Sequence record: NC_105825.1 | Length of the DNA: 64,000 nucleotides | Direction: 5' to 3' (one strand) | Source of the DNA: Escherichia phage ECOP18 | Shown: in pieces, positions 12,173 through 60,076 of the stretch | Numbering within the stretch: position 1 is the first letter of the stretch | Layout of the letters: the number at the start of each line of letters is the position of its first letter | Position numbers and translations under genes: made by a program | Notes under the pieces: model-generated | Seen by the model: the letters and a program-made list of their open reading frames with translations, nothing else | The model's database searches: none | What the model was told of the DNA's origin: nothing

Positions 12173-12199
12173 TTAATCCTCCTATCAATCTATATAAAT

Positions 12200-12228
12200 A
12201 TTATACCAAAATTTTTAGCAAAAAGCAA
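12200..12228 (-). promoter_or_regulatory. early sigma70-type promoter (TTGCTT-17-TATAAT)
   Basis: Same architecture. Confidence 0.55.
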
Positions 12229-22060: not shown

Positions 22061-22090
22061 TTGGCTTCCCTCTCATTAATTTATATAAAT

Positions 22091-22119
22091 ATTATAACAA
22101 TAAATAAGAGAGAAAGCAA
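22091..22119 (-). promoter_or_regulatory. early sigma70-type promoter (TTGCTT-17-TATAAT)
   Basis: Same architecture. Confidence 0.6.
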
Positions 22120-24217: not shown

Positions 24218-24455
24218 AAATTATTTAGTTTACTAAGGCTATTAGCTCGGCGTAACTACAGCACCTTCGCTTCGAGCGGAAGGAACCGCGTCATCTCGCA
24301 AACCCGATACACTATTCAGTTGCCACTGAATCTAGTGGACTAATCTAGAACTTCTCCCGAATCGTAGGGATCGTGCTTTTTGGCAGCCAGTCCTAGGTCG
24401 AACTAATACCTTAGTGAACTATGATGAGGATTTCTCCTCATCAATTTATATAAAT

Positions 24456-24484
24456 ATTATAACAAGAAATTAAGCATTAAGCAA
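24456..24484 (-). promoter_or_regulatory. early sigma70-type promoter (TTGCTT-17-TATAAT) driving a non-coding leader and tRNAs
   Basis: Same architecture; no CDS for about 240 nt downstream on the minus strand. Confidence 0.55.
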
Positions 24485-38421: not shown

Positions 38422-38448
38422 AAAGCCCTCCTCACTTTCAATACGAAT

Positions 38449-38477
38449 ATTATACTAAATTAGAGGGCTTTAAGCAA
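38449..38477 (-). promoter_or_regulatory. early sigma70-type promoter (TTGCTT-17-TATAAT)
   Basis: Same architecture. Confidence 0.55.
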
Positions 38478-41846: not shown

Positions 41847-41877
41847 TGATTTTCCTCTTTCTCACTATTTCAGGAAT

Positions 41878-41906
41878 ATTATAGCAAATCTGGTAGCGAT
41901 TAGCAA
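41878..41906 (-). promoter_or_regulatory. early sigma70-type promoter (TTGCTA-17-TATAAT) upstream of nrdB
   Basis: Same architecture. Confidence 0.55.
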
Positions 41907-45673: not shown

Positions 45674-45702
45674 TTGACATCCGCCCTCGAATGAGTTATA
45701 AT
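45674..45702 (+). promoter_or_regulatory. sigma70 promoter TTGACA-17-TATAAT for nrdD
   Basis: Perfect consensus hexamers, 17-bp spacer, about 30 nt upstream of the nrdD ATG. Confidence 0.65.
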
Positions 45703-45731
45703 AGTAGTCTTAGTTAGAGAAGGAGAGTATA

Positions 45732-47606
45732 ATGAATCGCAATGAAGAACTAAAGTATAAAGAAATGCAGGCGTTAATTAGAAACTGCAAAGAGATTATC
45801 GAAGGGTCAGCAGATGAAGAGCTGCTGTTTAATAATGCCAATAAACCCTCAGAACGTTTCCCTACACAAAGGGATATGCTTGCAGGTGAATTGAGTAAGT
45901 ATCTGATTCTAGAAGAAATGCCCATTCAGATTCGAAATGCTCATATGATTGGAGATATTCATTTCCATGATGCTGACTATGCTGCATTAGGTATGACTAA
46001 CTGTTGTCTGGTAGCTCTGGAAGATATGTTGAAGAATGGTATGAAGGTTGGTAATGCTGAAATTAGCACTCCAAACTCTATCACTACTGCGGCAGCTATT
46101 ACAGCTCAGATTATCACTCAGGTTAGCTCCCATCAGTATGGTGGTACTTCTGTAGATCGCCTTGATGAAGTATTAGCCCCTTATGTTCGTAAATCCTATG
46201 ACAAAAATCATGCGTTTGCAAAACGTTGGACTAAGGATGAAGCCAAAGCATCCGTAATGGCTACGGAGATGACTGAAAAAGAAGTCTATGATGCTTGTCA
46301 GGGTCTAGAGTATGAAATCAATACGATGTTCAACTCTAATGGTCAGAGTCCATTTATTACCTTTGGTTTTGGTCTAGGGACTTCTTGGGAAGCACGTCTA
46401 GTACAGAAAGCAATACTGAAAGTACGTATGGATGGCTTAGGCATCAATAAACGTACAGCTATCTTTCCGAAACTGGTGTTTGTTCTGCGTGATGGCGTAA
46501 ATATGAAGCCAGGAGATGTTAATTATGACGTCAAGAAGTTAGCTATGAAATGTACTGCTGAACGTATGTATCCAGATTATATCAGCTATGATAAGGTTGT
46601 AGAAGTTACTGGGGACTATAAAGTTTCTATGGGCTGCCGTTCATTCCTAGCTGCTACAGAAGATGGTGAAACTGCCGGTCGTAATAACTTAGGTGTTGTT
46701 TCTGTAAACTTGCCTAGAATTGCTATCGAAGCTGAAGGAAATATTGACCTATTCTTTGATTTGCTTGAGCTACGTGTAGATACAGCATTAAAAGCGTTGG
46801 AGTGGAGAGTTGATCGCTTAAAATACATTCAAGCTAAAGCTGCACCCATCCTCTATATGTCAGGAGCCTTTGGGTTACGTTTGGGGCCTGATGAATATGT
46901 ATTCGATCATTTCTATAACCGTGCTTCTGTATCTCTAGGGTATATTGGTTGCCATGAAATGCTACAGTTCATGTTTGGCAAAGATGTAGACACAATGTCC
47001 GAGACCTGCATCAAGTTTGTTCAGCGTGTATTGCAGTACATGCGGGATAGAGTCGATCAGAAGAAGGAAGAAACTAAGTTAGGTTATAGCCTGTATGCTA
47101 CACCATCAGAATCCCTATGTGACCGTTTTTGTCGTCTAGACCGTGAATACTTCCCGGAGCATGAAGATATTCTGTCCAAAGGATACTACACTAACTCTCA
47201 CCACCTTGATGTAGAACGTAAAGTTGCTCCCAATGTGAAATTTGATTATGAATCTAACTTTACGCCGATTGCTTCTGGTGGATGTATTTCCTATGTAGAA
47301 CTACCGGATATGAAACGATTCCCAGATGCACTGGAATGGGTTATTAATTATGCTGCTAGTAAGGTTCATTACTTCGGTATTAATACTCCAGTGGATTCTT
47401 GTGGTAAATGTGGATTCTTAGGTGAAACAATAGCATCCGAAGATGGGTTTAAGTGCCCTATCTGTGGTAATCATGACCCTGAAACTCTTGAAGTAACTCG
47501 TCGAGTTTGTGGGTATCTTGGAAATCCGGGTGCTCGTCCATTTAACCCCGGCAAACAGCACGAGGTTATGGGCAGAGTGAAACATCAGGATATTCGAGCT
47601 AAATAA
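45732..47606 (+). CDS. nrdD: anaerobic ribonucleotide reductase (class III)
   Basis: 624 aa; C-terminal Zn-ribbon cysteines (CGKCGF...CPICG) and glycyl-radical motif RRVCGYLG. Confidence 0.8.
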   Translation: MNRNEELKYKEMQALIRNCKEIIEGSADEELLFNNANKPSERFPTQRDMLAGELSKYLILEEMPIQIRNAHMIGDIHFHDADYAALGMTNCCLVALEDMLKNGMKVGNAEISTPNSITTAAAITAQIITQVSSHQYGGTSVDRLDEVLAPYVRKSYDKNHAFAKRWTKDEAKASVMATEMTEKEVYDACQGLEYEINTMFNSNGQSPFITFGFGLGTSWEARLVQKAILKVRMDGLGINKRTAIFPKLVFVLRDGVNMKPGDVNYDVKKLAMKCTAERMYPDYISYDKVVEVTGDYKVSMGCRSFLAATEDGETAGRNNLGVVSVNLPRIAIEAEGNIDLFFDLLELRVDTALKALEWRVDRLKYIQAKAAPILYMSGAFGLRLGPDEYVFDHFYNRASVSLGYIGCHEMLQFMFGKDVDTMSETCIKFVQRVLQYMRDRVDQKKEETKLGYSLYATPSESLCDRFCRLDREYFPEHEDILSKGYYTNSHHLDVERKVAPNVKFDYESNFTPIASGGCISYVELPDMKRFPDALEWVINYAASKVHYFGINTPVDSCGKCGFLGETIASEDGFKCPICGNHDPETLEVTRRVCGYLGNPGARPFNPGKQHEVMGRVKHQDIRAK

Positions 47607-55858: not shown

Positions 55859-55887
55859 TTGCTTAATCCTACAATTCTTGATATAAT
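55859..55887 (+). promoter_or_regulatory. early-family promoter (TTGCTT-17-TATAAT), plus strand
   Basis: Consensus hexamers. Confidence 0.6.
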
Positions 55888-55944
55888 ATTCTCATAGTTT
55901 GAAAGAACTATTCTGTTTAATTCTTAATTAAGGAAATATAAAAT

Positions 55945-56738: not shown

Positions 56739-57044
56739 ATGAGCGAACAGGTAAATCAAAACTATGATGGACACGTTGATGACCAGTCCATCATACTTTG
56801 GGAGAAGGAGGGAGAACAAGTAAGATTAACAGTATCTGAATTTCGTGGGAATCTATACATGGGTATTCGTTACTGGCTTCTTGATATTAATGATGAATGG
56901 TTTCCAACGAAATCTGGCTTCTCTTTTCCTTACACCCTAGAAACAACATCACAGCTTTTCTATGCGTTTACACAGATTCTTAGCGAATCTGAGGTTTTAC
57001 ATGAAGTACAGAAACGAGCTGAAGAACTCAAAGCCAAGAACTAG
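56739..57044 (+). CDS. hypothetical protein
   Basis: ORF track 101 aa. Confidence 0.5.
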   Translation: MSEQVNQNYDGHVDDQSIILWEKEGEQVRLTVSEFRGNLYMGIRYWLLDINDEWFPTKSGFSFPYTLETTSQLFYAFTQILSESEVLHEVQKRAEELKAKN

Positions 57045-57074
57045 GCATTCTTGGCTTTTTCTTTATAAATGTAT

Positions 57075-57103
57075 TTGCTTTCAACTCAGTTTTGTTATAT
57101 AAT
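57075..57103 (+). promoter_or_regulatory. early-family promoter (TTGCTT-17-TATAAT), plus strand
   Basis: Consensus hexamers and leader ATTTATATAAATTAATGAGAGGA. Confidence 0.6.
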
Positions 57104-57117
57104 ATTTATATAAATTA

Positions 57118-57333
57118 ATGAGAGGATTAATCATGGCAATGACAGTAACACTTCCCAAGATTCAAGCAAAACTTAATCTACTTTCCACAGCACGCATTAA
57201 TTATCAGGATAACATAGGCACAGTAAATCAAAAGGTGTACAAAGATGCGTTTCTGAAAGAATCTGCTGATTTGATGGATATGGTTACACAATATAATAAA
57301 GAACTCAAGATGGAAATCGCCGATGATGAATAA
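57118..57333 (+). CDS. hypothetical protein
   Basis: ORF track 71 aa. Confidence 0.5.
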   Translation: MRGLIMAMTVTLPKIQAKLNLLSTARINYQDNIGTVNQKVYKDAFLKESADLMDMVTQYNKELKMEIADDE

Positions 57334-58297
57334 TGTAAAAGACTTTATTAAGCGTTGTCAAGAAGCATATTATCAAGGCATGTCTTTAATCTCTGACGAA
57401 GAATATGATCGTCTGATTAAAAGATTTCCACTAGAAGAAGAGATCGGGCCTAAGGGTGATATTCCACACCTGTATCGTATGTATTCTTTACAGAAAGTTT
57501 ATTATAATCGTGGAGATAAACCTCCGTTTAACCCATTAGGTCAGGTGGAAACTGATAAGTTAGATGGTTGTGCGATTTCTCTGCTATATATTAATGGCGA
57601 TTTTGTTCAAGCACTAACTCGTGGTAACGGTATTTTAGGAAATGATGTCACAAGCAACGTAAGATTGCTGAACATCCCCAAAAAGATTTCCCAAAAAGTA
57701 CCTACTCAAATCACTGGTGAAGTTCTAATTACAAAAGAAGTAGAAAATAAACGTAACTTTGCCTCTGGTGCTATTAACCTCAAAGATAGCGATGATTTCG
57801 TACAACGTATCGGGGAAGGTGGTTTAATCTTCGTTGCATATGGTATCCAGTGTTCTGCTGAATCTGTAGGTATTACAGAAGCATATTTAAAAGATATGCT
57901 TTGGCTAGAGAATGAGAACTTCTTAACAGTTGTTAATGTGCGTTCCTTCTTTAAATGGATTCCGACGGACGGTAAAGTTGTCCGTATTAATGATAACAAC
58001 AAATTCTTCCGAGAAGGCTGGACTAATAAATTCCCTCGTGGAGCATTCGCTATTAAAGAGGATGAAGAAGGCGAGATTACAACCCTTACTAAAGTTGAAT
58101 GGCAGGTAGGGGCTTCTGGTAAAGTAACTCCAGTTGGTTATTTCGAACCGGTAATTATTGATGATGCTACAATTGTTAAAGCGACTCTTAATAACGTTGA
58201 TTATATTAACTCTCTTGATTTAGAGATCGGTTGCCAGATTCGAGTGATTCGTGCTGGTGGTGTAATCCCGTGCATAGTAGAGCGAGTATACGATTAA
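57323..58297 (+). CDS. NAD-dependent DNA ligase, N-terminal adenylation part
   Basis: 324 aa; KLDG lysine-adenylation motif in LigA-like context (ETDKLDGCAISLLY). Confidence 0.65.
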   Translation: MMNNVKDFIKRCQEAYYQGMSLISDEEYDRLIKRFPLEEEIGPKGDIPHLYRMYSLQKVYYNRGDKPPFNPLGQVETDKLDGCAISLLYINGDFVQALTRGNGILGNDVTSNVRLLNIPKKISQKVPTQITGEVLITKEVENKRNFASGAINLKDSDDFVQRIGEGGLIFVAYGIQCSAESVGITEAYLKDMLWLENENFLTVVNVRSFFKWIPTDGKVVRINDNNKFFREGWTNKFPRGAFAIKEDEEGEITTLTKVEWQVGASGKVTPVGYFEPVIIDDATIVKATLNNVDYINSLDLEIGCQIRVIRAGGVIPCIVERVYD

Positions 58298-58440
58298 TAC
58301 ATAACCCTTTGCTACCCATCTACCATATCGGAATTATAAAGTGGTTATTGACATTTTCGCCGCTTAGGTATATACTATTATCATTCAGTTGAGGGATAGA
58401 AAGTTATGGCGAGGGTAAGCAAAGTTAGTTAAAATTGTAG

Positions 58441-58469
58441 TTGCTAAATGCTTAAATACTTGCTATAAT
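58441..58469 (+). promoter_or_regulatory. early-family promoter (TTGCTA-17-TATAAT) between the two ligase ORFs
   Basis: Consensus hexamers. Confidence 0.6.
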
Positions 58470-58496
58470 ATTTATATAAATTGATAAGGAAGAAAT

Positions 58497-59270
58497 TTGA
58501 TGAAAATCGAAATTCCAACACAATGTCCCTCTTGTGGTTCTAAGCTAGATCTTGTCAACGGACAATTATTCTGTCGGAATAAGTCCAACTGTCCAGCGCA
58601 ATCAAGTAAGTTAATTGAGAACTTCTGTTCAAAAATGAAGTTAAAGGGCTTTGGCCCGAAAACTATTGAGAAGCTGGAGCTGACGAAGATTTCAGAACTC
58701 TTTTACCTAACCGAAGAAGATTTGGTTAGAGCCGTGGGTAGTAAGGTTGCCGCTAAGTTAATTAGCGAATTAAATACTAAAGTTCGCGGAGACATTGACT
58801 TTGGTTCAGTTCTCGGTTCTTTAGGAATCCCTCTAATTGGAGAGGTTGCAGCAAAGAAATTATCCCAAAATTGCACTAGCTTCCATGATGTGAAGGCTGA
58901 CGGCAAGGCTGGAGAAAATTATAAAGCCTGGCTAAATTCCCCACAAGGCAAGGATGTTATCGAATTACCGTGGAAATTCTCAACTGGTGCTAAAGCTAAA
59001 ACCGTCGTTACTGATGATTTAGTTGCCCAGCCAAATGGAATCGCGGTATGTATTACCGGATCTTTGCAAGATTTTGCAAATCGAACGGATGCAACAAACT
59101 ACTTAGAAGGTCTAGGATACACGGTTAAGAAATCCGTTACCAAAGACGTCAAATACCTAATCTGTGAGGATGAATCAAAACGTTCTTCCTCATCTTATAA
59201 GAAAGCCGAAACGAATGGGATAGAAATCCTGTCGATTAAAGAACTATTGGAGAAAAATAATAATGTCTAA
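58497..59270 (+). CDS. NAD-dependent DNA ligase, C-terminal part (Zn-finger/HhH/BRCT-like)
   Basis: 257 aa; Cys4 cluster CPSCGSKLDLVNGQLFCRNKSNCPAQ, then HhH-like and BRCT-like segments. Confidence 0.6.
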   Translation: MMKIEIPTQCPSCGSKLDLVNGQLFCRNKSNCPAQSSKLIENFCSKMKLKGFGPKTIEKLELTKISELFYLTEEDLVRAVGSKVAAKLISELNTKVRGDIDFGSVLGSLGIPLIGEVAAKKLSQNCTSFHDVKADGKAGENYKAWLNSPQGKDVIELPWKFSTGAKAKTVVTDDLVAQPNGIAVCITGSLQDFANRTDATNYLEGLGYTVKKSVTKDVKYLICEDESKRSSSSYKKAETNGIEILSIKELLEKNNNV

Positions 59271-60030
59271 ACTGAACTGGAACGTAGAAGGTGTAACCGA
59301 GTCTCTGAAAGCAAAAGCCACTGCTCTGGGTGTTGCTGTAATCTCTCAAGAACAAGTAGCTGCTATCGCTGCTGAACTGGCCGCTGAAACTGGCAAAGAT
59401 GTTACCGCTCGCTCTGTTGGCTCTAAACTGCGTAAAGAAGGTTTTGAAGTACAGAAAGCTAACGAAGTACAGAAATCCCCGTGGACTCCTGAGCAGGAAG
59501 CTGAACTGGTTGATTTCCTGAACGCTCATGCTGGTCAGTATACCTATGCTGAAATCGCTGCTGCTGTGGCTGGTGGTCAGTTCGGTGCTAAGCAGGTACA
59601 GGGTAAGATTCTGAGTCTGGAAATGACCGCTTCTGTTAAGCCAACCGAAAAAGCTGCTGCTGTTCGTTCCTTCACTCCAGATGAAGAAACTGATTTTGTT
59701 AATCAGGTTGTTGCTGGTGCTACTATTGAAGCTATCGCTGCTCACTTCGGTCGTAATATTAAGCAGATCCGCGGTAAAGCTCTGAGCCTGCTTCGTGAAG
59801 GTCGTATCGCTGCTATGCCGGTACAGGAAACCTCAAGTGCTAAAACTAGTGAAGATCTGTTAGAAGGTCTGGATCTGGTTAACATGACTGTTGCTGAGAT
59901 CGCTGAGAAAACTGGTAAGTCTGAGCGCGGTGTTAAATCTATGCTGTCTCGTCGTGGTCTGGTTGCTAAGGACTATGATGGTGCCGCTAAGCGTGCTAAA
60001 CTGGATGCAAAAGCTGCGGCTGCTGAATAA
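59263..60030 (+). CDS. protein with four internal HTH-like repeats (possible DNA-binding protein)
   Basis: 255 aa; repeated about 33-aa units (AAIAAELAAETGKDVTARSVGSKLRKEGFEV; AEIAAAVAGGQFGAKQVQGKILSLE; EAIAAHFGRNIKQIRGKALSLLREG; AEIAEKTGKSERGVKSMLSRRG). Confidence 0.5.
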   Translation: MSKLNWNVEGVTESLKAKATALGVAVISQEQVAAIAAELAAETGKDVTARSVGSKLRKEGFEVQKANEVQKSPWTPEQEAELVDFLNAHAGQYTYAEIAAAVAGGQFGAKQVQGKILSLEMTASVKPTEKAAAVRSFTPDEETDFVNQVVAGATIEAIAAHFGRNIKQIRGKALSLLREGRIAAMPVQETSSAKTSEDLLEGLDLVNMTVAEIAEKTGKSERGVKSMLSRRGLVAKDYDGAAKRAKLDAKAAAAE

Positions 60031-60042
60031 TCTGGTAAATTA

Positions 60043-60076
60043 AACCTAAGGGGAGGGGGCTATGCTCCTTCCCCTT
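60043..60076 (+). terminator. rho-independent terminator / attenuator
   Basis: ggggaggg...ccttcccc hairpin followed by ttttt. Confidence 0.5.

What the first reader, a model, noticed from the sequence alone, without database searches (positions are those of the whole stretch)
57323..59270. NAD-dependent DNA ligase encoded as two separate ORFs with a promoter between them
The adenylation-domain part (KLDG motif) ends at 58297. The Zn-finger/HhH/BRCT-like part starts at 58497 with its own RBS, and a consensus promoter lies in the 200-bp gap. I recall a split ligase being annotated in T5, but whether the two parts assemble, are spliced at the protein level, or reflect a decayed insertion cannot be judged from sequence.
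Basis: partly seen in the sequence, partly recalled or inferred. Interest (0 to 1): 0.5.

Follow-up and report, generated by a model that had tools for sequence, protein, structure and literature searches.

The report
Known two-subunit DNA ligase of T5 phages
This is the already annotated two-gene (ligA/ligB) NAD-dependent DNA ligase of T5-like phages, with the named T5 promoters P-K28b and P-K28a between the genes; a relative's crystal structure shows that the two proteins work as a heterodimer, so the finding is real but ordinary.

Summary
The window is a T5-like phage. ORF 57323-58297 encodes the Ia/adenylation/OB part of a NAD-dependent ligase. ORF 58500-59270 encodes the Zn-finger/HhH/BRCT part. 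The 202-nt gap has 5-6 stops in every frame and the ORFs are in different frames, so a single frameshift cannot join them.

The gap is 100% identical to phage T5, where RefSeq annotates ligA (T5.116), ligB (T5.117) and two promoters in the gap, P-K28b and P-K28a. So there are two promoters, not one.

Against a full-length phage LigA profile, only about 6 linker positions between the OB and Zn-finger domains are unaccounted for. There is no intein or endonuclease remnant. PDB 9HU3 (released January 2026) is the "PR1 phage heterodimeric DNA ligase" on nicked DNA. It is 54-56% identical to this ligase and has the same split.

The split occurs at the same position in every relative examined, including environmental contigs of about 40% identity. 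A near-consensus sigma-70 promoter precedes ligB in every gap scanned, and the D5 gene follows it in 54 of 55 diverse loci. The interval after the ligA stop holds no ORF in most lineages and 1-3 inserted genes in others, including a GIY-YIG homing endonuclease in Salmonella phage SP3.

Verdict: already known; low interest.

The parts
57075..57106 (+). T5 early-type promoter (TTGCTT-17-TATAAT-ATT) upstream of the small ORF and ligA. It lies just after the terminator-like hairpin at 57030-57058.
   Evidence: One of 8 matches in the window to TTG-N20-TATAATATT, against 0.06 expected by chance. T5 RefSeq annotates a promoter at the equivalent place.
57118..57333 (+). 71-aa ORF of unknown function whose end overlaps the ligA start. 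It is absent from T5, where about 10 nt stand in place of about 200 nt here.
   Evidence: ORF list; phrog_8267 at 8.7e-43; blastn against T5 shows the indel.
57323..58297 (+). ligA, the ligase A subunit: a short NAD-specificity domain Ia, the adenylation (nucleotidyltransferase) domain with KLDG at 57557-57568, and the OB fold. The start could also be the second ATG at 57326.
   Evidence: Pfam PF01653 and PF03120. phrog_3359 covers 1-325 of 325 positions at 3.6e-176. K79 aligns to E. coli K115, and residue 321 to E. coli 390. The region is about 96% identical to T5 at DNA level.
58298..58499 (.). 202-nt non-coding gap between the two ligase genes. It has stops in all frames and 31% G+C.
   Evidence: 5-6 stops per frame. 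100% identical to T5. 90% of positions are invariant among 23 distinct Tequintavirus-like sequences. No Rfam match.
58348..58376 (+). Promoter P1, which corresponds to T5 P-K28b: TTGACA-17-TATACT. The inferred transcription start is near 58383.
   Evidence: Promoter scan, 11/12. It falls inside the T5 RefSeq feature 'promoter P-K 28b'. A P1-type promoter with its -10 ending 116-126 nt before the ligB start is present in all the enterobacterial and Vibrio phage lineages compared.
58391..58432 (+). Shine-Dalgarno-like GAGGGA (58391-58396) followed by an 8-codon mini-ORF (58406-58432, MARVSKVS), both downstream of P1. The purine-rich motif is conserved across genera; the mini-ORF is not.
   Evidence: Read directly from the sequence and compared across genera.
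58441..58469 (+). Promoter P2, which corresponds to T5 P-K28a: TTGCTA-17-TATAAT with an upstream TG, followed by ATT to give TATAATATT. The inferred transcription start is near 58476.
   Evidence: Promoter scan. It falls inside the T5 RefSeq feature 'promoter P-K 28a'. The early-promoter signature is 8 copies against 0.06 expected. ATATT as the mark of T5 early promoters is from PMC7472727. A promoter 21-41 nt before ligB is present in nearly all environmental relatives scanned.
58486..58492 (+). ligB ribosome-binding site AAGGAAG, 7 nt before ATG 58500.
   Evidence: Read directly from the sequence.
58500..59270 (+). ligB, the ligase B subunit: Cys4 zinc finger, helix-hairpin-helix domain, a disordered linker (residues 163-176) and BRCT.
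   Evidence: Pfam. phrog_3498 covers 1-255 of 256 positions at 3.1e-136. PDB 9hu3_B at 1.1e-81. The AlphaFold model (pLDDT 83) matches 9hu3_B and E. coli LigA 2owo.
59263..60030 (+). D5 DNA-binding/regulatory protein gene. Its start overlaps the end of ligB by 8 nt, so the two genes form one unit.
   Evidence: ORF list. phrog_323 'D5-like' at 3e-71. T5 annotation. A D5-like gene directly follows ligB in 54 of 55 diverse loci.
60048..60076 (+). Intrinsic-terminator-like hairpin (13 pairs followed by a T run) that would end the ligB-D5 unit.
   Evidence: Terminator scan.

Best explanation
The locus is the two-subunit NAD+-dependent DNA ligase of T5-like phages (Demerecviridae).

LigA carries the NAD-specificity domain Ia, the adenylation domain with the catalytic lysine, and the OB fold. 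LigB carries the Zn finger, the HhH DNA-binding domain and BRCT. The polypeptide break lies in the short OB/Zn-finger linker, and essentially nothing is missing.

The two proteins are made separately and associate non-covalently into a heterodimer. That heterodimer clamps and seals nicked DNA as single-chain bacterial LigA does.

ligA is the last gene of one early transcription unit. ligB is the first gene of the next unit, ligB-D5, which is driven by the tandem T5 promoters P-K28b and P-K28a located in the gap.

What is shown here: the gene structure, the domain content, identity with T5, and conservation of the split and of the promoter.
What is shown only for a 54-56% identical homologue: heterodimer formation on nicked DNA (title and chains of PDB 9HU3).
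What is inferred: that this phage's own subunits assemble in the same way, the transcription start points, and the limits of the transcription units.
For: Domain content and mapping:
- Domain content.
- LigA maps to positions 9-381 and LigB to 388-654 of the 656-position full-length ligase profile phrog_3869.
- K79 aligns to E. coli K115 and LigA residue 321 to E. coli 390. LigB residue 3 aligns to E. coli 402.

Identity with T5 and with the solved structure:
- T5 RefSeq annotates ligA, ligB, P-K28b and P-K28a, and the gap is 100% identical.
- PDB 9HU3/9I5I holds chains A (339 aa) and B (248 aa) from Providencia phage PR1 and is titled as a heterodimeric DNA ligase on nicked DNA.

Conservation of the split:
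- The split is at the same residue positions in every locus where both genes were found, among roughly 100 distinct loci, including environmental contigs of about 40% identity.
- The 120 best LigB homologues, down to 50% identity, are all separate proteins rather than fusions. Most are 247-263 aa, and two are shorter partial entries.

Promoters and transcription unit:
- A near-consensus promoter lies before ligB in every gap scanned.
- P2 belongs to the window's early-promoter signature, 8 copies against 0.06 expected.
- D5 follows ligB in 54 of 55 loci.
Against: No assay or structure exists for this phage's own proteins, and identity to the crystallised homologue is only 54-56%. No publication describing 9HU3 was found in the held paper library, so activity and stoichiometry rest on the PDB title and chain content.

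No terminator was detected between ligA and P1 in this window. ligB may therefore also be read through from the ligA promoter, and the description as two separate units is only partly established.
Confidence: 0.9

Rival explanations
1. The two ORFs are an artefact or a pseudogene: a sequencing frameshift or a recent disruption of a single ligase gene.
For: None beyond the bare fact that a normally single-chain enzyme is split.
Against: The gap is 202 nt with 5-6 stops in every frame, and the ORFs are in different frames. The same architecture is seen in 447 phage records and in diverse metagenomic contigs. ligB has its own RBS and promoters. The homologue was crystallised as two chains.
Confidence: 0.01
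2. The halves are joined after translation by a split intein (protein trans-splicing) into one chain.
For: Split inteins are known to interrupt replication enzymes in other systems. This rests on my own knowledge and was not tested here.
Against: LigA ends at the end of the OB fold and LigB starts 8 residues before the first zinc-finger cysteine. Only about 6 linker positions of the full-length profile are unaccounted for, so there is no room for intein halves. No Hint or intein Pfam domain was found. The PDB entry keeps separate A and B chains.
Confidence: 0.01
3. Origin hypothesis. The split is the scar of an ancient insertion, either a homing-endonuclease gene or a promoter-bearing cassette, into a once continuous ligase gene. 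The two halves survived because they still assemble. This concerns how the split arose, so it is compatible with the best explanation of how the enzyme works.
For: The interval between the ligA stop and the promoter module is an insertion hot spot. It holds a GIY-YIG endonuclease gene in Salmonella phage SP3 (PF01541, 1.1e-5), a NADAR gene in Proteus phage Stubb (1.8e-31), and 1-3 ORFs in Vibrio phages, including a DprA-like gene. In SP3, ligA identity to the window falls from 98% to 58% over the last 190 nt next to the endonuclease gene and returns to 98.5% beyond it. That pattern is typical of homing with co-conversion of flanking sequence.
Against: No endonuclease remnant exists in this gap (the best tblastn hits, E 6.9 and 8.6, lie elsewhere in the window). 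The SP3 endonuclease gene is present in only 3 of 436 matching records, so it arrived recently. The split is far older than any of these insertions. No fused close relative is available to show the ancestral state.
Confidence: 0.2
4. LigB is not only a ligase subunit. Because it sits behind strong tandem promoters together with D5, it is made in excess and has a second, ligase-independent DNA-binding or recruiting role.
For: ligB always heads the D5 unit and always has its own promoter. BRCT and HhH modules act as independent DNA or protein binders in other proteins, as the structural neighbours show.
Against: No data on expression level or interaction partners were obtained. The only solved structure shows LigB as part of the ligase on nicked DNA. 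The promoters could equally exist for the sake of D5.
Confidence: 0.1

Closest known systems
Phage T5 ligA (T5.116) / ligB (T5.117) with promoters P-K28b and P-K28a (RefSeq NC_005859)
   Same: Same genes, same order (regulator, ligA, gap, ligB, D5, D6). The gap is 100% identical, and the whole region is about 96% identical at DNA level.
   Different: Only trivial differences. LigB is 256 aa here against 259 aa in T5. A 71-aa ORF (phrog_8267) sits between the ligA promoter and ligA here and is absent from T5.
Providencia phage PR1 heterodimeric DNA ligase, PDB 9HU3 / 9I5I (released 2026-01-14)
   Same: Same split between OB fold and zinc finger, same two-gene layout with a predicted promoter in a 192-nt gap. 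The A and B chains match at E 4e-104 and 1e-81.
   Different: A different genus (Priunavirus), only 54-56% identical. The PR1 annotators also predict a terminator after ligA, which was not detected here.
Bacterial single-chain NAD+-dependent DNA ligase LigA (E. coli 2OWO, T. filiformis 1DGS)
   Same: Same domain order: Ia, adenylation, OB, Zn finger, HhH, BRCT. The KxDG lysine, motif IV DG, motif V lysine and the Cys4 finger are all aligned.
   Different: A single chain of 671 aa, against 324 + 256 aa here. Identity is about 25-30%. The adenylation and HhH domains are shortened here, and about 6 linker residues (E. coli 394-399) have no counterpart.
Phage 'genes in pieces' made by homing-endonuclease insertion (for example Aeromonas phage Aeh1 nrdA split by mobE; T4 topoisomerase genes 39 and 60). 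Recalled from my own knowledge, not checked here.
   Same: An essential DNA-metabolism enzyme encoded as two polypeptides that reassemble. A free-standing endonuclease gene can occupy the junction, as in phage SP3.
   Different: In this window, and in nearly all relatives, the junction holds promoters rather than an endonuclease gene. The split is family-wide and ancient rather than strain-specific.

Membership tests
NAD+-dependent DNA ligase (LigA family) | Adenylation domain with the KxDG lysine and the downstream nucleotidyltransferase motifs | tested here: met
   PF01653 at 82.8 bits against a 27-bit cut-off. KLDG K79 aligns to E. coli K115. DG at 216-217 aligns to E. coli 285-286. The lysine of 'AIK' aligns to that of 'AFK'.
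NAD+-dependent DNA ligase (LigA family) | N-terminal domain Ia, which confers NAD+ specificity | tested here: inconclusive
   'ISDEEYDRL' aligns to E. coli 'IPDAEYDRL' and T. filiformis 'ISDAEYDRL', but the HMMER domain scores there are insignificant. The domain is short, about 45 residues. Cofactor use cannot be tested here.
NAD+-dependent DNA ligase (LigA family) | OB fold, Cys4 zinc finger, HhH domain and BRCT domain | tested here: met
   OB: PF03120 at 78.4 bits. BRCT: PF00533 at 32.7 bits. HhH: PF12826 at 24.6 bits, below the 27-bit cut-off, but the fold matches 2OWO. C9, C12, C25 and C31 are invariant in 27 homologues.
NAD+-dependent DNA ligase (LigA family) | All domains on a single polypeptide | tested here: not met
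   Two ORFs in different frames, 202 nt apart, with stops in all frames between them. This makes it a two-subunit variant of the family.
T5-like two-subunit ligase (LigA/LigB; PHROGs 3359 + 3498; PDB 9HU3) | A subunit ends after the OB fold, B subunit starts at the zinc finger, and the genes are adjacent in the order ligA, ligB, D5 | tested here: met
   phrog_3359 covered 1-325 of 325 and phrog_3498 covered 1-255 of 256. Same end points as PR1 chains A and B. D5 follows ligB.
T5-like two-subunit ligase (LigA/LigB; PHROGs 3359 + 3498; PDB 9HU3) | The two proteins form a heterodimer that binds and seals nicked DNA | not testable with these tools
   Known only from the title and chain content of PDB 9HU3 for the PR1 homologue. 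Not tested for this phage.
T5 promoters P-K28b / P-K28a | Sequence identity with the annotated T5 promoter features; sigma-70 -35 and -10 hexamers with a 17-nt spacer | tested here: met
   The gap is 100% identical to T5. The T5 features at 66366-66440 and 66459-66533 map onto window 58328-58402 and 58421-58495. The hexamers score 11/12 and 10/12.
T5 early-class promoters | ATATT element in the discriminator region (PMC7472727) | tested here: met
   P2 reads TATAATATT and belongs to a set of 8 such sites in the window, against 0.06 expected. P1 reads TATACTATT and does not carry the exact element. Promoter activity and timing were not measured here.
Intein / split intein | Extra intein residues (Hint domain halves) at the C-terminus of the first protein and the N-terminus of the second | tested here: not met
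   No Hint or intein Pfam hits. Both proteins are fully accounted for by ligase domains, with about 6 linker positions missing rather than extra.
Gene split by a resident homing endonuclease gene | An endonuclease gene, or a recognisable remnant of one, between the two halves | tested here: not met
   tblastn of the SP3 GIY-YIG protein against the window gives only chance-level hits (E 6.9 and 8.6), none of them in the gap. The gap has no ORF longer than 8 codons preceded by an RBS.

The most novel reading that the evidence does not exclude
The ligA|ligB junction may be an ancient operon boundary marked by a promoter and kept throughout the T5-like phages. The break in the ligase would persist because it lets ligB be expressed with D5 from strong tandem early promoters, giving LigB a different dose or timing, or a second role. 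The stretch just after the ligA stop would serve as a recurrent landing site for accessory and selfish genes (a GIY-YIG endonuclease, NADAR, DprA-like genes). I found no paper stating the family-wide coupling of split, promoter and D5 or the insertion hot spot, though the paper searches were limited.
Probability: 0.2. Interest if true: 0.4.

Novelty: already known. Interest (0 to 1): 0.12.

Why it matters
It matters little as a discovery. The split ligase, its two gene names and both promoters in the gap are in the T5 reference annotation, and the heterodimer of a relative has a released crystal structure on nicked DNA.

Its main value is as a clean natural example of a multidomain enzyme cut exactly at a domain linker that still functions. 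This bears on ligase engineering and on how T5-like phages handle their nicked genomes. The comparative points gathered here could guide a small follow-up on why the split is maintained. Those points are that the split, the promoter and the following D5 gene are conserved in relatives of about 40% identity, and that the junction is an insertion hot spot.

Tried and rejected
- Known RNA families in the gap: an Rfam search at E <= 1 found nothing.
- A conserved RNA structure in the leader transcribed from P1: the window's leader folds better than shuffles (z = -3.9). RNAalifold on 13 sequences from different lineages predicts no shared pairs. I treat the fold as lineage-specific or chance.
- A conserved palindrome or operator overlapping the -35 of P2: perfect inverted repeats of 10-12 bp occur in 3 of 11 lineages, but the window's own repeat is not significant (p = 0.23). 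Not a consistent feature.
- The 8-codon mini-ORF after P1 (58406-58432): it is not conserved. It is lost in phage PSTCR5 (ATG changed to ACG) and absent in Vibrio and Pectobacterium phages.
- The roughly 280-bp extra sequence in Salmonella phages phA11 and phC11: it lies upstream of ligA, not in the gap.
- An endonuclease remnant in the gap: none.
- Fused close relatives: none among the 120 best LigB homologues or the loci where both genes were found. The nearest single-gene phage ligases, as annotated, are in jumbo phages at no more than 32% identity.
- A paper describing PDB 9HU3: five searches on its code, its title wording and related terms found nothing in the held library.
Full report
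**What is there**

The window is a T5-like phage. The 2.5 kb around the finding matches 447 phage records. [quoted passage not shown]

ORF 57323-58297 (324 aa) matches the NAD-ligase adenylation and OB-fold Pfam domains. ORF 58497/58500-59270 carries a Cys4 zinc finger, HhH and BRCT.

In alignments to E. coli LigA:
- K79 of the KLDG motif aligns to the catalytic K115.
- The DG of motif IV and the lysine of motif V align.
- 'ISDEEYDRL' lines up with the domain Ia motif 'IPDAEYDRL'.
- LigA residue 321 aligns to E. coli 390, and LigB residue 3 to E. coli 402.

On the 656-position full-length phage ligase profile phrog_3869, LigA covers positions 9-381 and LigB covers 388-654. The break therefore lies in the OB/zinc-finger linker, and only about six linker positions lack a counterpart.

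**Not an artefact**

The 202-nt gap has 5-6 stops in each frame, and ligB is in frame +1 relative to ligA. The real ligB start is ATG 58500, 7 nt after the RBS AAGGAAG. This is the start used in T5 RefSeq and in the crystallised homologue.

**The gap**

A consensus scan finds two promoters on the + strand:
- P1: TTGACA-17-TATACT at 58348-58376.
- P2: TTGCTA-17-TATAAT at 58441-58469, with an upstream TG.

Two such hits occur in 0.5% of shuffles of the gap.

T5 RefSeq (NC_005859) annotates 'promoter P-K 28b' and 'promoter P-K 28a' between ligA (T5.116) and ligB (T5.117). The window's gap is 100% identical to that T5 gap. The two promoters are therefore the named T5 promoters. From memory, these names come from the promoter-cloning work of Bujard's laboratory in the 1980s.

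P2 reads TATAATATT. This contains the ATATT element reported to mark T5 early promoters (PMC7472727). The pattern TTG-N20-TATAATATT occurs 8 times in the window against 0.06 expected by chance. One copy, at 57075-57106, lies just upstream of the small ORF and ligA.

No terminator was detected between ligA and P1. A terminator-like hairpin follows D5 at 60048-60076. D5 overlaps the end of ligB by 8 nt. The inferred layout is:

early promoter - orf71 - ligA | P-K28b, P-K28a - ligB - D5 - terminator

**Do the halves assemble?**

PDB 9HU3 and 9I5I hold a 339-aa chain 'DNA ligase (NAD+)' and a 248-aa chain 'DNA ligase subunit B'. They match LigA and LigB of the window at E 4e-104 and 1e-81.

The B chain is 100% identical to Providencia phages PR1 and PSTCR5. 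The entry title is 'PR1 phage heterodimeric DNA ligase in complex with 21-mer nicked DNA containing phage nick sequence', released 2026-01-14.

An AlphaFold model of the window's LigB (pLDDT 83) has 9hu3_B as its best match, with E. coli LigA among the next matches.

Assembly into a heterodimer is thus shown for a homologue of 54-56% identity and inferred here. I found no paper for this entry in the held library.

**How old and how general is the split?**

The same split is present in all the genera of the family that were sampled. The distance from the ligA stop to the ligB start varies:

| Lineage | Distance (nt) |
|---|---|
| Tequintavirus | 202 |
| Sugarlandvirus | 199 |
| Priunavirus | 192 |
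| Novosibvirus | 344 |
| Vibrio phages | 443-1374 |

Eighty more loci from IMG/VR include environmental contigs of only about 40% identity. All of them show LigA ending at query residue 319-324 and LigB starting at residue 1-6. Gaps in the environmental contigs are mostly 64-120 nt. No locus where both genes were found has them fused.

The 120 best LigB homologues in the large protein database, down to 50% identity, are all separate proteins rather than fusions. Most are 247-263 aa, and two are shorter partial entries.

Every gap scanned holds a near-consensus sigma-70 promoter. In nearly all of them it ends 21-41 nt before the ligB start. The enterobacterial and Vibrio phage lineages add a second promoter upstream, with its -10 ending 116-126 nt before the start and 57-68 nt before the -35 of the proximal one. 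A D5-like gene directly follows ligB in 54 of 55 diverse loci; the exception is a truncated contig.

The split, the promoter in front of ligB and the ligB-D5 linkage are therefore ancient and stable.

**Insertion hot spot**

What varies is the stretch between the ligA stop and the promoter module.
- It holds no ORF in T5, in this window, in Sugarlandvirus, in PR1 and in most environmental relatives.
- Proteus phage PL1 has a 55-aa ORF there.
- Proteus phage Stubb has a NADAR-domain gene (1.8e-31).
- Vibrio phages have 1-3 ORFs, including a DprA-like gene.
- Salmonella phage SP3 and one other phage have a 213-aa GIY-YIG endonuclease gene (PF01541, 1.1e-5).

In SP3, ligA identity to the window falls from 98% to 58% over the last 190 nt before the endonuclease gene. 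It returns to 98.5% from window position 58315. That pattern is typical of homing with co-conversion.

This endonuclease gene is rare and recent, so it did not cause the split. It has no remnant in the window. An ancient insertion as the origin of the split remains possible but untested.

**Things that led nowhere**

No Rfam family matches the gap. No RNA structure is shared across lineages in the leader, although the window's own leader folds unusually well. There is no consistent palindrome at P2, and the mini-ORF after P1 is not conserved.

**Verdict**

Everything in it is already in the T5 reference annotation, and the heterodimer has been solved for a relative. It is an already known feature of low interest. 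The comparative picture of a conserved split, promoter and D5 unit with an insertion hot spot is the only modestly new element.

Noticed in passing
L034:1699-2340 (Salmonella phage SP3, MG387042); corresponds to window about 58100-58315: A 213-aa GIY-YIG homing-endonuclease gene sits directly after the ligA stop in SP3 and in vB_Sen_SG_WM_RUS_R2 (3 of 436 matching records). Next to it, the last 190 nt of ligA drop from 98% to 58% identity with the window, and identity returns to 98.5% beyond the insert. This looks like a homing co-conversion tract.
   Followed up: partly
L041:1653-2309 (Proteus phage Stubb): A 218-aa NADAR-domain protein (PF08719, 1.8e-31) is encoded between ligA and the promoter module. 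Other Proteus phages have only a 55-aa ORF at that site.
   Followed up: partly
L005:3469-4448, L006:3457-3753, L007:3469-4687 (Vibrio phages pVp-1, 70E37.6, Direpillow8): One to three extra ORFs lie between ligA and ligB: phrog_23191 or phrog_7775 of unknown function, and a DprA-like protein (phrog_768). They are always upstream of the conserved tandem promoters.
   Followed up: partly
window 12197-12228(-), 22088-22119(-), 24453-24484(-), 38446-38477(-), 41875-41906(-), 55859-55890(+), 57075-57106(+), 58441-58472(+): Eight copies of the T5 early-promoter signature TTGCT[TA]-N17-TATAATATT, against 0.06 expected by chance. The strand switches between about 42 kb and 55 kb, which matches the divergent early gene blocks.
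   Followed up: partly
window 45674-45705 (+): The only other site in the window matching the P1 (P-K28b) pattern TTGAC-N18-TATA[AC]TA[GT]T. It lies just upstream of a 624-aa ORF (45732-47606).
   Followed up: no
window 58383-58510 (+): The RNA that would start at P1 folds into a long hairpin that pairs 58403-58413 with the -10 region of P2 (-27.9 kcal/mol, z = -3.9 against shuffles). RNAalifold finds no equivalent structure in other lineages.
   Followed up: yes
window 58391-58432 (+): P1 is followed by a Shine-Dalgarno-like GAGGGA and an 8-codon ORF (MARVSKVS). The purine-rich motif recurs after P1 in all the lineages compared and resembles the leader after P2. P1 thus looks like a complete promoter-plus-leader cassette with no gene behind it. 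The mini-ORF itself is not conserved.
   Followed up: partly
window 57118-57333 (+): A 71-aa ORF (phrog_8267, unknown function) sits between the ligA promoter and ligA. T5 has about 10 nt there. Salmonella phages phA11 and phC11 carry a further small ORF in that upstream stretch. The 5' side of ligA is therefore also variable.
   Followed up: partly
window 57323-59270: The locus is mosaic. LigA is closest to Escherichia phage VEc33 (99.4%), to which LigB is only about 96% identical. LigB is 100% identical to a 256-aa variant on a 111,325-bp IMG/VR contig, the same length as Salmonella phage NR01, whereas most relatives have a 259-aa LigB. Within the Tequintavirus-like set, the last 60 nt of ligA vary more (80% invariant) than the non-coding gap (90%).
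   Followed up: no
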